Positions 6,212 through 64,000 of a stretch of DNA of 64,000 nucleotides are shown here, one piece after another (the first letter of the stretch is position 1; each line of letters starts with the position of its first letter). The notes under the pieces are model-generated. The model was not told the DNA's origin, did no database searches, and saw only the letters and a program-made list of their open reading frames with translations. The stretch comes from Dictyostelium discoideum (Eukaryota), in the NCBI GenBank assembly GCA_000004695.1, contig CM000153.2, positions 1,824,001 through 1,888,000 of the forward strand. Reading direction: 5' to 3'. The position numbers and the translations under genes are program-made.

Positions 6212-6669
6212 TATTTGTATATATTTATATATGTATATTTTATATGATTATAGTTTATATTTTTTTCTCGACCCCTCTTTACCACTTATTATATTATTAT
6301 ATTATTACTATACAATTGATAGATAGAAATATATTTATTATTTGTTTATAAAATGTATGAAAAACAATTTAAAAGCTTACGCGCTCTTTTTTTATTATTA
6401 TTTTATTTTTTTATTTATTTGTTTATTTATTTATTTATTTATTTATCTATTTGTTTTTTTATTTATTTATTTATTTATTTATGCGGGTGTGTTGCTTTTA
6501 TTATAATAATACACAAAAAAAAAAAAAATTTTATTTTGGCAAAATAAAAAAATAAAAAAAAAATGAAAAAATTTAAAAAAATAAAATTAAAATGTGTAAA
6601 AGAGGTGTTTTAATTAATTGATAATGCCAAAGATAGGTAAAGACACTAAAATAGAAACAAATGCAATTT

Positions 6670-54098: not shown

Positions 54099-54262
54099 TA
54101 TAAATAGTTTTTTAAAAAAAATAAAAAAAAATAAATCACACAGTATATATACATAAAATTTAGTTAGTTCTTTCCCATTCATAATCGATTTACTTTTTTA
54201 TCATTTTCAAAATTGTATTTAATACACTAACATTTCATTGTTAAAAACAAAATTTTCTATTA

Positions 54263-54436
54263 TAAACAAATTTTTTTATTAAAAACTTTTTTTTTTAATT
54301 GAATGCTCAATCCATTTTTATTTTTTTTTTGAATTGGATAACGCAATTATTATTTGCTTCTCCTTGTGATGCTAGATCTCATTTTATTTTATTTTTTTTT
54401 TTTTTTTACAGGGTCTCTAAAAGAGGGGTTGGTTTA

Positions 54437-54484
<48 letters not shown>

Positions 54485-54775
54485 TTTCGAATTTTGAATG
54501 TATTATTACTTTTGATTAAAACATCTTTTTTGTTCAAACTTTTTTCTAAATCTTTTTTTATTTTATCGTCTGGTTCGTGATTGATGTTTATGACGTATTT
54601 GAATTGTTTTTTTTTTAATTGAGTTTTATCCACAATTTCGCTTATTTTTTGTAGGCATTTGTGTTGCTTAATATTTGTGGTGTTGTTTGTGATTTTCATT
54701 TTATTTTCTTTCTATTTTTTTTATTTTTCTTTAAAAAGTTAAAAATCTGGAAATTTTCTGATTAACTTGGGTTCC

Positions 54776-54837
<62 letters not shown>

Positions 54838-55522
54838 TTATTTATAGAAAGTACTGAGTGAATTATTGTATTTTTTGAGATGTTTAGGAAGTTCTATTGC
54901 GTGGAGAGGTGAGTTCCATTGTCTGCTAAATTGTAATAGCTTTAGCGAGATTAGTGAGTCTAATTTATTTTGTTCTTCTGGCCGTTGCTTTGATTTGATT
55001 CTTAATGTTTTGTTTATAACCGCTTGTGTCCTGTCCCATGCAGCTCTTTGTGTTTTAATTAGTTCACGTATGACTTGTTGTCTGTGAATTATTATTTCTT
55101 TTTCATCGTGAATGAGTTTATTTCTTTTGTGCCAGATTTTTTCGAATATAATAGCTATTAAATTGGCGACTAGTGCAATTTGTAGATGGTTTAAAATCTT
55201 CACATTCCAGGTGTGAGTGGTGTGTCCACACTTAGTTAGGGTGTAGTTGAAGATTTCTTGTGTGTTTTTGATGTGGGCTTTGCAGTTGAAGAATATATGT
55301 TCTGAAGTCTCATCTTCCCCACACTGTTGGCATGGCATGTTGTATTTTTTTGGTAGTGCTTTCAGTGTGTATCTCCATAATAGATCTCTACCTTTCATGT
55401 TTATTATTTTTTTGATTTCTTTAAATGGAAGGTGTTTGCTATTAATTTTGGTCATTATTTCTTTTTGGCCAGGAGTTGGTATGAATTTGTTGTGTTCAGG
55501 AGATTGAGTTGTCATCATTTTT
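54263..55522 (-). mobile_element. 5'-truncated non-LTR (TRE5-type, tRNA-gene-targeted) retroelement fragment: ORF2 C-terminal region with Cys/His zinc-knuckle, followed in the minus sense by A-tracts and short 3' modules
   Basis: Minus-strand ORF 54838..55533 (…LPKKYNMPCQQCGEDETSEHIFFNCKAHIKNTQ… = CX2C…HX4C-type motif typical of non-LTR ORF2 C-termini; also has a higher-GC, coding-like composition). Plus-strand poly-T runs at 54781-54836 and 54431-54484 are poly-A in the element sense, separating about 296-nt and about 130-nt 3' modules. The insertion is bounded by a 22-bp direct repeat (ttaaaaacaaaattttctatta at 54241-54262 and 55524-55545). The right junction lies about 44 bp upstream of tRNA-Ile, the canonical TRE5 position (about 48 bp). 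Confidence 0.55.
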
Positions 55523-55565
55523 ATTAAAAACAAAATTTTCTATTAAAAAAAAAAATCCATCGAAA

Positions 55566-55638
55566 GCTCGATTAGCTCAGTCGGCAGAGCGTGGTGCTAA
55601 TAACGCCACGGTCGCAGGTTCGATCCCTGCATCGAGCA
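55566..55638 (+). tRNA. tRNA-Ile (anticodon AAT/AAU), 73 nt, no intron
   Basis: Clean cloverleaf by hand. Acceptor stem GCTCGAT/ATCGAGC (7 bp). D-arm GCTC-AGTCGGCA-GAGC. Anticodon stem TGGTG/CGCCA with loop CTAATAA (anticodon AAT). Variable loop CGGTC. T-arm GCAGG-TTCGATC-CCTGC. Discriminator A. A-box and B-box (GGTTCGATCC) are present. Confidence 0.85.
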
Positions 55639-55667
55639 AGTTTTTACATGATGTTTACACATATCGC

Positions 55668-55678
55668 AGGTTCGACTC
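55668..55678 (+). promoter_or_regulatory. ex-B box (extra, downstream copy of the tRNA B-box) about 30 nt 3' of tRNA-Ile
   Basis: GGTTCGACTCC at 55668-55678 duplicates the internal B-box GGTTCGATCC. Downstream ex-B boxes are a known feature of Dictyostelium tRNA genes and the landmark used by TRE3-type elements. Confidence 0.5.
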
Positions 55679-55992
55679 CTTACTTGGGATTGAGGTCCTC
55701 TTAAATAAAATAGATAAAAACACAAGTGTGGCACCCTAACCCTTTTTGAGACCAAATAAAAGGGTTGGGTACTTCTCTTTTTTTTTGTGTTTATTTTTAT
55801 TTTTAAACAATAAAAAAAAATGAAAAAAAAAAATTAAATAATTTTAGGGTTTTAAAAAATATATACACAAATAAGTTAATTTTAAAACTATCATTATAAG
55901 TTAATTAAACATTTATTAACAAAAATATATATATATTAAAAAAAAAAAAAAAAAAAAAATTAAACTCCTATTATTTTTTGAAAACTAACCAA

Positions 55993-56841
55993 TAATCAAA
56001 AAAGAATGGATACCACTCAAAAGAATAAAATTAGATAATAATATAAATTATAATAATAAAATAATACCAAGATACATTTTTATTAATATTATTGAATCAA
56101 TAATTAATTATTTATGGTTAAAAAGAAAACTTGATAATAATATTATTTATAATTATGAAATAAAATATTATTATTATATTAATGAAATAATAACATTATC
56201 ATTGGTATCAAAAGATTGGTTTAAAATTATATCAAAATTACTAAATAATATAATTGATAATAATAGATTAGAATATTGGTTCAATATTTTTTGTATCATG
56301 TCCTTGTAAATTCCATTTATATTGTGTTTGTAATGATTTTCAAACTAAATATCAAGATTATATTAGAAATAATGATTATAATCACAATGATGAAAATTTA
56401 AAAAAAATTTTTAATATATTAAAAATAATTTCAAATGGTATTAAATCATTATTGTCTTCAACATCATCATTGGAATATTTCAAAATTAATACATCAATTG
56501 TACTTTGTAATGATACATTCTCTAAATTAAATGAAAATAAATCAATTAAAACCTTAGTATTTGAAAATGGGTTTAAATATAAAGGAAAAGATACAGAAAA
56601 TGAACAATTCCACAAAAATCATTATTATGGTATTATTCAATATTTAATAGAAAATGTATTCAGTGTAGCAACTTCAAATATTTTCTATAGAGAAAATTAA
56701 ATTCATATACAATCAATATTTAAATTAATTTTAAATCATATAAATACAATTCAATTATATTCAATCAAAATAAAAATAACTGAAAATATTTTAGAATCTA
56801 CATTGGATGAAATTGTTAATCTATCAGATAAATTCTCTGAA

Positions 56842-56906
<65 letters not shown>

Positions 56907-56997
56907 CTCAAATCTATCATTTAAGAATTTAGTTGAATTTAAAATCATTGTTGTCAAAGACTCTGAAATTGGTAATACTAAACAATATCAATTATAA
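55993..56997 (+). pseudogene. Fragmented F-box-like ORF string (possible pseudogene or gene with unresolved introns)
   Basis: Three consecutive stop-free stretches, each in a frame +1 of the last: the ATG at 56006 (MDTTQKNKIR*); 55993-56318 (…IPRYIFINIIESIINYLWLKRKLD…ITLSLVSKDWFKIISKLLNN… = F-box-like LP..I…I….L…..L..VSK.W..I); and 56292-56997, the last interrupted by one TAA at 56698 and ending in a (CAA)22 poly-Q. No ATG heads the F-box frame. Confidence 0.25.
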
Positions 56998-57382
56998 CTA
57001 AAAGAAAAAAATAACAAACTTTGTCATTTCGCTGTTTCAGTTTTACATCATAACAACAGATAATAAAAATACATATTATAAATTAATTAAAAAAATAAAT
57101 AGTTTTATTTTAAGAAATATATATATATCTATATTTGGTTATTTTTATTATTATTAATGAAATTGAAATTCCAAATGGTGAAAATTGGCCAATTAGTGAG
57201 CATAGTGCTTTCAATTTACAAAAAAAAAGAAAAACCAATTCTTTGAGATAATATTATTAATAATTGTGAAAAATAAAAGAAATAAAAAAAAAAAAGATTA
57301 CTCTGTATTATTAATTAATTTAATAAAAGTTTATTTATTTTGCTTTATTTTTTTATTTTGTCTTTATTAATATTTATTTTTG

Positions 57383-62948: not shown

Positions 62949-64000
62949 CTAAGATTTGTATTAATTAATGAAATTAAAAATTTTGATAAATCTTCATTTA
63001 ATAACAATTTAAAAAAAAATAATTCATTATAAACCTGACCATTATTTTCACTTTCAATCTTTTCTCTATTTATTGATGATTTTCTTGGTGTAGTGTTTTC
63101 AACAATTTCGCTATAATTAATTGGTCTAACTTTATTATTAAAAATCCAAAATAATTTTTCAGCTTCCCTTTTTTAAAAAAATAAAAAATAATACAACAAA
63201 TTATATAAAAAATTGAAAATGTTATTTAATGAAAAATAAATTTAATAATTATAAATTTTAAAAAACAAAAAAGATCACAAATTAACATACTCATTTCTCA
63301 TTTTTTGATCAATTTGGGCATTTGTAATTATTGTTTTTGAAATATTACTTTCTTTGTTTATTTTTTCTGATTTTTTTGTCATTTTATTTATAGAATGGTT
63401 AAATGTTCAATAAAAAAAAAAAAAAAAAAAAAAATACACACACTTTCATTTTAATATTTGTTTTCAAAAATAAATATCTGAATTTTTATTAATTTTTTTT
63501 TTTTTTTTTAATTTTTTAAGGCGTAAAAAAATGTGAAAAATTTTTTTATTTTTTGTGTTAAAAGTCAATAAAGAAAATTTAAATTTTCAATTAAAAAAAT
63601 AAAATAAAGTGTGATTGTAAAATAAAAATAAAAATCTCTTTTTGATTAGGAAAAAGGTAAATCACTTTTTTAATTTTTTATTTTTTTTTTTTTTATTTTT
63701 TATTAAATTCATAGGGAAAAAAAAAAAAAAAAAAAAAAGCAATCACTTTTATTAAAAAGATTTTTTTTTTTTTTTTTTTTTTTCTATCACCTTCATCCCA
63801 ACTTCCAAATTTTTTTTATTTTTTATTGTCACGTTTGGGTTCGTTTTTTTTTAATTTTTTACGGAAAATATTTTTTTCATTTTTTTTTTTTTTTTTTTTT
63901 TTGTCAATTTTCGCTCAATAAATTCTAAAATTTTTTTCATTTTTTTTTCAAACCAAATACCAACAAATTGTAAGTCTATATAATTTCAAATAATATTTTT

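What the first reader, a model, noticed from the sequence alone, without database searches (positions are those of the whole stretch)
54241..55760. tRNA-Ile locus as a retroelement landing pad: 5'-truncated TRE5-type insertion with 22-bp target-site duplication about 44 bp upstream, ex-B box and a 9-bp-stem hairpin downstream
A non-LTR ORF2 C-terminal fragment (Cys/His knuckle) with two internal A-tracts ends 44 bp upstream of the tRNA 5' end. It is bracketed by a perfect 22-bp direct repeat (ttaaaaacaaaattttctatta). Thirty nucleotides after the tRNA there is an ex-B box (GGTTCGACTCC). At about 55728-55760 there is a hairpin, AACCCTTTT-N11-AAAAGGGTT. The geometry matches position-specific tRNA-targeted retrotransposition. 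The TSD is unusually long and perfect, suggesting a recent event.
Basis: partly seen in the sequence, partly recalled or inferred. Interest (0 to 1): 0.5.

Follow-up and report, generated by a model that had tools for sequence, protein, structure and literature searches.

The report
Truncated TRE5-A retrotransposon beside tRNA-Ile
This is an ordinary, already well-described kind of event: a dead, front-truncated copy of the Dictyostelium discoideum retrotransposon TRE5-A sitting in its usual place and orientation just upstream of a tRNA gene, with one small oddity at its tail end.

Summary
The window is D. discoideum AX4 chromosome 4, next to plbD. tRNA-Ile(AAU) lies at 55566-55638. On the minus strand there is a 5'-truncated TRE5-A.1. 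It consists of the ORF2 C-terminal zinc-finger part (55518->54841), an A-tract, the 3' B-module (carrying the first 70 ORF1 codons), a second A-tract, the C-module and oligo(A). Its 5' end faces the tRNA, 47 nt away. The two "internal A-tracts" are normal module boundaries.

The perfect 22-mer (54241-54262 / 55524-55545) is real. Two other strains labelled D. discoideum have the empty site. One other strain and public read assemblies carry the same insertion. A D. cf. discoideum strain has an independent TRE5-like insertion at the same tRNA gene.

One caveat applies. The 22-mers are not flush with the element. 58 nt of non-TRE5-A DNA separate the oligo(A) from the left 22-mer, and 5 extra nt lie at the 5' junction. 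Four other natural copies have flush 12-15-bp duplications. The repeat is therefore either the duplication of a composite (read-through) insertion or that of an older small insert. This is unresolved.

The ex-B box is conserved in five loci. The hairpin (really at 55738-55766) is lineage-specific, with no sign of function. This is a known kind of element and of low interest.

The parts
55566..55638 (+). tRNA-Ile (anticodon AAU), the target gene. The internal B box GGTTCGATCCC is at 55618-55628 and a T5 terminator follows directly after the gene.
   Evidence: ARAGORN. Rfam RF00005 at 64.1 bits. The same gene is present at the orthologous position in L002, L003, L004, L007 and L008.
55524..55545 (.). 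Right (tRNA-proximal) copy of the perfect 22-bp direct repeat. It is followed by 20 nt of native flank (A10 TC CATCGAAA) and then the tRNA.
   Evidence: The native character of the 22-mer plus A-run plus CATCGAAA is supported by the parallel arrangement in the empty locus L007.
55519..55523 (-). Five extra nucleotides (TAAAA in the element's sense) between the right 22-mer and the first TRE5-A base. They are either untemplated or template-switch nucleotides, or the right copy of a short flush duplication TAAAA(ATG).
   Evidence: Homology to other TRE5-A copies starts at 55518. The 8-mer CATTTTTA occurs at both edges of the element proper, at 54313-54320 and 55516-55523.
54841..55518 (-). TRE5-A ORF2, C-terminal 226 codons with a CCHC-type zinc knuckle. 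It is 5'-truncated: there is no A-module, no ORF1, no endonuclease domain and no reverse transcriptase domain. The stop codon is at 54838-54840.
   Evidence: 99% identity to P0001 and P0002. The longer copy P0001 continues upstream of the truncation point. Pfam zf-RVT gives E 0.016.
54780..54835 (-). A-tract 1 (56 A in the element's sense), the boundary between ORF2 and the B-module. Its length varies between assemblies and between copies.
   Evidence: It is 23 nt shorter in L004. An equivalent tract is present in L001 and L005.
54484..54779 (-). 3' B-module (296 nt). It carries the ORF1 start codon at 54699 and the first 70 ORF1 codons.
   Evidence: 97.6% identity to the 5' B-module that precedes ORF1 in L005. 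69/70 amino-acid identity to the 444-aa ORF1. Published structure AB-ORF1/ORF2-BC with a B-module of about 290 bp (PMC3159450).
54439..54483 (-). [quoted passage not shown]
   Evidence: It is 14 nt shorter in L004.
54331..54438 (-). C-module, ending ...gcgttatccaattc, with the published 3' stem-loop region.
   Evidence: Bases C38, A35, C26 and T15, counted from the 3' end, match the mutants named in PMC3159450. Each is paired in one of two predicted stems. The same 3' end is found in L001, L005 and L009, and in L006 with an internal deletion just upstream.
54321..54330 (-). Oligo(A) tail, A10. It may be A10-T-A5 if 54315-54320 is counted as well.
   Evidence: Other copies have tails of A10 to A17.
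54263..54320 (.). S1: 58 nt that are not TRE5-A, lying between the oligo(A) and the left 22-mer. It contains a degenerate third copy of the target motif (54261-54287, 23/27 to 55524-55550), a T10 run, AATTGAATGCTCAATCCA, and on the minus strand an AATAAA 12 nt before its end. Its origin is unresolved.
   Evidence: Four other TRE5-A copies go straight from the oligo(A) into their flank or target-site duplication. Similarity to native upstream DNA: p 0.0013 (L003), 0.04 (L002), 0.009 (right flank). Similarity to the B- and C-modules is not above chance: p 0.15 and 0.35. The same segment is present in L004 and in read assemblies L010 and L011.
54241..54262 (.). Left (distal) copy of the perfect 22-bp direct repeat.
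   Evidence: It is orthologous to the motif that follows the shared left flank in the empty alleles L002 and L003.
55668..55678 (+). External B box (ex-B), GGTTCGACTCC, 29 nt after the tRNA 3' end.
   Evidence: The block TCGCAGGTTCGAnTCCTTA is conserved in all five orthologous loci while the surrounding DNA is not (alignment A2). An ex-B box is described at about 80% of D. discoideum tRNA genes (PMC5911963).
55733..55770 (+). Inverted repeat (a 9-bp perfect stem, 13 bp with one bulge, and an 11-nt loop), followed by a T-run. It is lineage-specific and no function is indicated.
   Evidence: -21.1 kcal/mol, z -2.0, 9 of 200 shuffles fold as well. It is not alignable in L002, L003, L007 or L008. 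No Rfam match at E<=1. No other copy in the window or in the fetched loci.

Best explanation
A TRE5-A.1 non-LTR retrotransposon RNA was reverse-transcribed at the target (target-primed reverse transcription) upstream of this tRNA-Ile(AAU) gene in the lineage leading to AX4.

From the TRE5-A literature, the element's ORF1 protein contacts TFIIIB on the tRNA gene. This fixes the insertion about 47 bp upstream, with the element's 5' end facing the tRNA.

cDNA synthesis, or joining of the cDNA to the target, stopped early. Only the last ~1.2 kb was installed: the ORF2 zinc-finger tail, the 3' B-module, the C-module and the oligo(A). The copy has no promoter module, no complete ORF1, and no endonuclease or reverse transcriptase domain. 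It is therefore inert. At most it retains the weak antisense promoter and CbfA-binding C-module.

The perfect 22-mers are the staggered-nick duplication of an insertion event. That event installed the TRE5-A fragment together with a 58-nt 3' extension. The reading I favour is a read-through transcript ending 12 nt after an AATAAA, that is, a 3' transduction. In that reading, the 5 extra nt at the 5' junction were added by template switching.

Shown here: the element's identity, its architecture, its orientation, its distance from the tRNA, the insertion polymorphism and the duplication.

Inferred: the TFIIIB-guided mechanism (from the literature) and the origin of the 58 nt.
For: Identity:
- The ORF2 tail is 99% identical to D. 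discoideum proteins.
- The stretch 55518-54315 is 95% identical to another copy in L001, across both A-tracts.
- The module between the A-tracts is 97.6% identical to the 5' B-module in L005 and encodes ORF1 residues 1-70.
- The C-module bases C38, A35, C26 and T15 match the published mutants and lie in stems (PMC3159450).
- Only TRE5-A has a 3' B-module (PMC3159450, PMC5006619).

Placement:
- The first element base is 47 nt from tRNA position +1, and the 5' end faces the tRNA.
- The literature gives 47+/-3 bp and a strict orientation (PMC5391098).

Insertion:
- L002 and L003 are empty alleles.
- L004 and Logan contigs carry the same junctions.
- The copy has 0.54% private substitutions.

Duplication:
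- The 22/22 repeat was seen in 0 of 100 shuffles.
- The reconstructed empty site (flank, 22-mer, A10, TC, CATCGAAA, tRNA) parallels L007.

Composite insertion: an AATAAA lies 12 nt before the end of the 58-nt segment.
Against: - The 22 bp exceed the 10-16 bp reported for tagged TRE5-A (PMC9012585). They also exceed the 12-15 bp flush duplications I saw in L001, L005, L008 and L009.
- No 3' extension was seen in four other copies.
- There is no A-run between the 58-nt segment and the left 22-mer, as a polyadenylated read-through RNA would predict.
- The 58 nt resemble the local target DNA more than chance allows (p 0.001-0.04). A foreign transduced flank does not explain this.
- An 8-nt repeat, TAAAAATG, sits flush at both ends of the TRE5-A proper.
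- Measured from the genomic junction, the composite block is 42 nt from the tRNA, outside the 44-50 core window.
- No progenitor locus could be searched for.
Confidence: 0.5

Rival explanations
1. Two nested events. First, a small 58-nt insert of unknown source (possibly an orphan or extremely truncated retro-copy) landed 42 nt upstream of the tRNA and produced the 22-bp duplication. Later, the TRE5-A.1 fragment inserted at the canonical -47 position, 5 nt inside that insert, and produced its own short flush duplication TAAAA plus 3 nt (ATG) of microhomology.
For: - The 8-mer CATTTTTA (TAAAAATG in the element's sense) sits flush at both ends of the TRE5-A proper, at 54313-54320 and 55516-55523.
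- The first TRE5-A base is exactly 47 nt from the tRNA, the modal position (PMC5391098).
- Stacking of successive TRE5-A insertions at one tRNA gene is seen in L005.
Against: - It needs two events, each with a duplication length outside the reported range (22 bp and 5-8 bp, against 10-16 bp).
- The 58-nt insert has no recognisable TRE 3' end. Its similarity to the C-module gives p 0.35 and to the B-module p 0.15.
- No intermediate allele was seen in any of the assemblies examined.
- TAAAAA may simply be the end of an interrupted oligo(A) tail, A10-T-A5.
Confidence: 0.3
2. The 58-nt segment and both 22-mers are native, pre-existing repeats of the tRNA upstream region. The TRE5-A fragment simply inserted between them at -47 with a 5-8-bp duplication. 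On this reading the 22-mer is not a target-site duplication at all.
For: - The empty alleles L002 and L003 already contain two copies of the core motif AAACAAAATTT in their 61-62-nt upstream region.
- The left side (22-mer plus 58 nt, 80 nt in total) is colinear with the whole upstream region of L003, including the T-run and xATxGAAx (p 0.0013).
Against: - A 22/22 perfect match next to sequence that is only about 70% similar is not what a single older duplication would leave.
- A tandem duplication of the 80-nt unit would repeat the 58 nt after the right 22-mer, and that is not seen.
- The implied upstream region (124 nt) would be twice the length found in any other strain.
- L007's compact native arrangement matches the right side alone.
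Confidence: 0.12
3. The element is a TRE5-B, TRE5-C, TRE3 or other non-LTR family member rather than TRE5-A.
For: No repeat consensus library could be queried directly. TRE5-C has a related C-module that is 78% identical (PMC3159450).
Against: - A 3' B-module is present and carries the ORF1 start. TRE5-B and TRE5-C lack a 3' B-module, and TRE5-B lacks a C-module (PMC3159450).
- All four published C-module positions match TRE5-A.1.
Confidence: 0.02

Closest known systems
TRE5-A.1 (formerly DRE), the tRNA-gene-targeted non-LTR (LINE-like) retrotransposon of Dictyostelium discoideum
   Same: - The ORF2 C-terminal zinc-finger region.
- The 3' UTR built of a B-module (with the ORF1 start) and a C-module (with the published stem-loop bases), followed by an oligo(A) tail.
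- 5' truncation.
- Head-to-head orientation, 47 nt upstream of a tRNA gene.
- Presence/absence polymorphism between strains.
   Different: The flanking duplication is 22 bp and not flush. It also encloses 58 nt of non-element DNA at the 3' end and 5 nt at the 5' end. The other natural copies examined here, and the tagged elements in the literature, have flush duplications of 10-16 bp.
TRE5-C and TRE5-B (sister families in D. discoideum)
   Same: Both are upstream-of-tRNA, orientation-specific non-LTR elements. TRE5-C also ends in a C-module.
   Different: Both lack a 3' B-module, and TRE5-B has no C-module. Here the B-module is present at 97.6% identity to a TRE5-A 5' B-module.
LINE-1 3' transduction and orphan transductions in mammals
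   Same: If the 58-nt segment was carried on a read-through transcript ending after a downstream AATAAA, the architecture is the same as in LINE-1 3' transduction: element, A-run, flanking DNA, then the duplication.
   Different: There is no terminal poly(A) after the extra segment. No source locus has been identified. To my knowledge 3' transduction has not been reported for TRE5-A, whose C-module is thought to be recognised at the RNA 3' end.

Membership tests
TRE5-A | Non-LTR ORF2 ending in a zinc-finger (CCHC) domain | tested here: met
   The 226-codon ORF tail is 99% identical to D. discoideum 'reverse transcriptase zinc-binding domain' proteins. The motif CX2CX8HX4C is present. The Pfam zf-RVT match is weak (E 0.016, below the cut-off).
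TRE5-A | 3' UTR composed of a duplicated B-module (~290 bp, containing the ORF1 start) followed by a C-module (~134-137 bp) | tested here: met
   The 296-nt module is 97.6% identical to the 5' B-module of L005. Its ORF matches ORF1 residues 1-70 at 69/70. The C-module ends in ccaattc, as in four other copies.
TRE5-A | C-module 3' stem-loop with bases C38/A35 (stem I) and C26/T15 (stem III), counted from the 3' end | tested here: met
   All four bases match, and each is paired in one of two predicted stems at 22 C (positions from PMC3159450).
TRE5-A | Integration about 47+/-3 bp upstream of a tRNA gene, with the element's 5' end facing the tRNA 5' end | tested here: met
   The first TRE5-A base is at 55518 and tRNA +1 is at 55566, leaving 47 nt between them. 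The orientation is opposite to the tRNA. From the inner edge of the 22-mer the distance is 42 nt.
TRE5-A | Oligo(A) tail directly followed by a 10-16-bp target-site duplication | tested here: inconclusive
   The A10 tail is present. The flush repeat is only TAAAA(ATG), 5-8 nt. The perfect 22-mer lies 58 nt beyond the tail. The comparison copies have flush duplications of 12, 15, 12 and 15 bp.
TRE5-A | A-module promoter, ORF1, and the APE endonuclease and reverse transcriptase domains | tested here: not met
   These are absent because the copy is 5'-truncated at ORF2 codon ~-226. Truncation is a normal state for members of this family and is not evidence against membership (PMC5391098).
TRE5-A | Best match to the deposited TRE5-A.1 consensus compared with TRE5-B, TRE5-C and TRE3 | not testable with these tools
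   No Dictyostelium repeat library or genome DNA search was available. Identity was established indirectly, through other genomic copies and published features.
TRE5-B / TRE5-C | No B-module in the 3' UTR (and, for TRE5-B, no C-module) | tested here: not met
TRE3 | Integration 40-150 bp downstream of a tRNA gene, in the same orientation | tested here: not met
   The element lies upstream of the tRNA and in the opposite orientation.
ex-B box of D. discoideum tRNA genes | A B-box-like GGTTCGANNCC motif a few tens of nt downstream of the tRNA | tested here: met
   GGTTCGACTCC is at 55668-55678. The block is conserved in five orthologous loci. The motif class is described in PMC5911963. TFIIIC binding was not tested.

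The most novel reading that the evidence does not exclude
The 58-nt non-element segment between the oligo(A) and the left 22-mer is a 3' transduction. A TRE5-A transcript read through its C-module into flanking DNA, ended after a downstream AATAAA, and was still used for target-primed reverse transcription. This would be the first documented 3' transduction by a Dictyostelium TRE element. It would show that the C-module stem-loop need not sit at the very 3' end of the RNA.
Probability: 0.35. Interest if true: 0.3.

Novelty: already known. Interest (0 to 1): 0.12.

Why it matters
It matters little beyond annotation. TRE5-A at tRNA genes is a textbook case of safe-site targeting in a compact genome. 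98 of the 405 tRNA genes in the AX4 reference are reported to carry a TRE5-A (PMC5391098), and this copy is very probably among them.

Three points have modest value:
- The locus gives a clean filled, empty and independently filled series across strains for one tRNA gene.
- The ex-B box is conserved while everything around it turns over.
- The atypical 3' junction could be a rare example of read-through (3' transduction) or of nested micro-insertion by a TRE element. That is worth a genome-wide look at TRE5-A 3' junctions.

Tried and rejected
- **Is the 58-nt segment part of TRE5-A?** No. Four other copies end at ccaattc plus A10-A17 and go straight into their flank.
- **Is it a fragment of the B- or C-module, or a TRE5-C-like 3' end?** A 16-nt exact match to the B-module and a 12/16 resemblance to the C-module end looked tempting. 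Against AT-matched random segments they are not significant (p 0.15 and 0.35). A 4-error fuzzy search finds many such matches.
- **Is it a decayed long duplication made by this same insertion?** No. The element has only 0.54% private substitutions, whereas the segment differs from the native flank by about 15-30%.
- **Is there an intermediate allele (58 nt without TRE5-A)?** None was found in L002, L003, L004, L007, L008 or the Logan contigs.
- **P0006 as a possible TRE5-C.** It turned out to be another, older TRE5-A at a tRNA-Glu gene.
- **Look-ups that failed.** An exact look-up of a neighbouring ORF and of AX4 PlbD found nothing on record.
- **Is the hairpin a known RNA or a repeat?** There is no Rfam hit and no other copy. 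The one BLAST hit, at 63666-63753, is low-complexity.
- **Is there a second copy of the segment's GC-containing core elsewhere in the window, as a wider duplication would leave?** No.
- **Literature.** A full-text search for 'ex-B box' found nothing, and one paper (PMC1636787) is not held.
Full report
**What is there.**
ARAGORN and Rfam both call a single tRNA gene in the window: tRNA-Ile(AAU) at 55566-55638 on the + strand. The 22-mer TTAAAAACAAAATTTTCTATTA occurs exactly twice, at 54241-54262 and 55524-55545. None of 100 shuffles gave two matches.

Between the two copies, on the minus strand, lies an ORF tail with a CX2C...HX4C knuckle. It has no stop codon over 226 codons (55518->54841). 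Pfam gives only a sub-threshold zf-RVT match. A protein search returns D. discoideum proteins at 99% identity, some of them named 'reverse transcriptase zinc-binding domain-containing'. The flanking gene is plbD (phospholipase B-like D). The AX4 protein matches the window's exons exactly, so the window is AX4 chromosome 4.

**Which element.**
I fetched other genomic copies through their predicted ORF2 fragments (L001, L005, L006, L009). A copy upstream of tRNA-Met (L001) aligns to window 55518-54315 at 95%, straight through both long A-tracts.

In L005, a copy next to tRNA-Thr has the layout A-module, A-tract, B-module/ORF1. Its 5' B-module is 97.6% identical to the window's module between the two A-tracts. 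The 97-codon ORF in the window's module matches the first 70 residues of that 444-aa ORF1 at 69/70.

This is the published AB-ORF1/ORF2-BC structure of TRE5-A. The literature states that TRE5-B and TRE5-C lack a 3' B-module and that TRE5-B lacks the C-module (PMC3159450, PMC5006619).

The last module ends ...gcgttatccaattc. Counted from that final c, the bases at positions 38, 35, 26 and 15 are C, A, C and T. These are exactly the bases named in the published C-module mutants (C38A, A35C, C26A, T15C). They fall in two predicted stems.

Their lengths differ between assemblies. The copy lacks everything upstream of the ORF2 tail, so it is a dead, 5'-truncated TRE5-A.1.

**Placement.**
The element's 5' end faces the tRNA 5' end. 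The first base with TRE5-A homology (55518) is separated from tRNA +1 by 47 nt. This matches the reported strict orientation and the modal 47+/-3 bp position (PMC5391098, PMC5911963).

**Is it an insertion?**
Using members of the PlbD protein cluster, I retrieved the orthologous locus from other assemblies.
- Two assemblies labelled D. discoideum (L002, L003) have tRNA-Ile about 180 nt after the plbD stop, with no element. These are the empty allele.
- A third assembly (L004) has the same insertion with the same junctions. It differs by three homopolymer-length changes, one 1-nt insertion and one substitution.
- Short-read assemblies from public runs (L010, L011) show the same left junction.
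- A D. cf. discoideum assembly (L008) has a different, ~450-bp TRE5-like fragment at the same tRNA gene. It has the same orientation, a flush 12-bp duplication, and lies 41 nt from the tRNA. The site has therefore been hit at least twice independently.

The window's copy carries 6 private substitutions in 1102 aligned positions. It is young, but it is not private to the laboratory strain.

**The 22-mer is not a simple target-site duplication.**
Four other natural copies go from ccaattc plus A10-A17 directly into a flush duplication of 12-15 bp. Tagged elements give 10-16 bp (PMC9012585).

In the window, A10 is followed by 58 nt (54263-54320) that are not TRE5-A, and only then by the left 22-mer. 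At the other end, 5 nt (TAAAA in the element's sense) separate the first TRE5-A base from the right 22-mer.

The 58 nt are not explained by the B- or C-module (p 0.15 and 0.35). They do resemble the native tRNA-upstream DNA more than AT-matched random segments do:
- p 0.0013 against L003;
- p 0.04 against L002;
- p 0.009 against the window's own right flank.

The segment includes a 23/27 third copy of the target motif.

An 8-nt repeat, TAAAAATG, sits flush at both ends of the TRE5-A proper. Three of its bases are also element sequence, and the TAAAAA may just be the end of an interrupted A-tail. The 58-nt segment carries an AATAAA 12 nt before its distal end.

**Readings of the junctions.**
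A 22/22 identity next to poorly matching sequence is the signature of a staggered-cut duplication around inserted DNA. I therefore take the 22-mers as a real target-site duplication, and the 58 nt as inserted material.

This could have happened in one step: a read-through TRE5-A transcript, that is, a 3' transduction. That fits the AATAAA and the fact that the filled allele parallels the compact native arrangement in L007.

It could also have happened in two steps: an older small insert with the 22-bp duplication, followed by the TRE5-A at exactly -47 with a 5-8-nt duplication.

I favour the single event slightly. The two-step model is supported by the flush 8-mer and the exact -47 position. 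A purely native origin of both 22-mers is less likely. Neither the progenitor search nor a search for an intermediate allele could be completed with the tools available.

**Downstream features.**
The ex-B box GGTTCGACTCC (55668-55678) lies 29 nt after the tRNA. It sits within a block, TCGCAGGTTCGAnTCCTTA, that is conserved in all five orthologous loci while the flanking DNA is not. External B boxes are described at about 80% of D. discoideum tRNA genes (PMC5911963).

The inverted repeat is at 55738-55766 and extends to 55733-55770. It folds at -21.1 kcal/mol, with a z-score of only -2.0. It lies in a stretch (about 55690-56100) that cannot be aligned to the other four lineages. It has no Rfam match and no other copy. 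I see no evidence that it is functional or connected to the element.

**Verdict.**
The kind of event is already well known. The only unusual point is the non-flush, 22-bp duplication that encloses 58 nt of extra DNA.

Noticed in passing
L008:5768-6216 (tRNA-Ile at 6257-6329): In a D. cf. discoideum assembly, the same tRNA-Ile gene carries an independent ~450-bp TRE5-like 3' fragment. It has the same head-to-head orientation, a flush 12-bp duplication TTCGCCGACTTT, and lies 41 nt from the tRNA. Its C-module-like end reads gcgttatttcattc.
   Followed up: partly
L007:5340-5430: In another D. cf. discoideum assembly the region upstream of the same tRNA is rearranged. It contains TTTTTTTGAATTGG (identical to the reverse complement of a TRE5-A 3' end plus tail), a 13-bp inverted repeat and a long C-rich tract. 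It may be a relic of a lost insertion.
   Followed up: no
window 55690-57280: The DNA between the ex-B box and the next conserved gene differs greatly between strains. It is 1.6 kb here, about 2 kb in L002 (85% similar over part of it), and only about 0.5 kb in L003. The region includes a small polyQ-containing coding stretch (about 56450-57000) that is absent from L003.
   Followed up: partly
window 54439-54483 and 54780-54835: The two homopolymer tracts are 14 and 23 nt longer in this reference sequence than in an independent assembly of a near-identical haplotype (L004). These lengths should not be trusted, or they are genuinely unstable.
   Followed up: yes
L005:1790-5260: A stacked array lies at a tRNA-Thr gene. 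A TRE5-A.2-type copy (duplicated A-module, B-module, 444-aa ORF1, shortened BC) has a flush 15-bp duplication. It sits tRNA-proximal to an older 5'-truncated TRE5-A.1. This illustrates repeated hits at -47 that push older copies outward.
   Followed up: partly
L002:7940-7983 and L003:7935-7977: The empty alleles already contain two copies of the core of the 22-mer (AAACAAAATTT), about 36 nt apart, in the native tRNA upstream region. The target motif is therefore intrinsically repetitive at this locus.
   Followed up: partly
PlbD cluster: Assemblies labelled D. discoideum (ACTFIR, ACTFIW) differ from AX4 by 12-13 residues in the first 394 residues of PlbD, and by about 8-9% in the adjacent intergenic DNA. 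That is large for one species.
   Followed up: no
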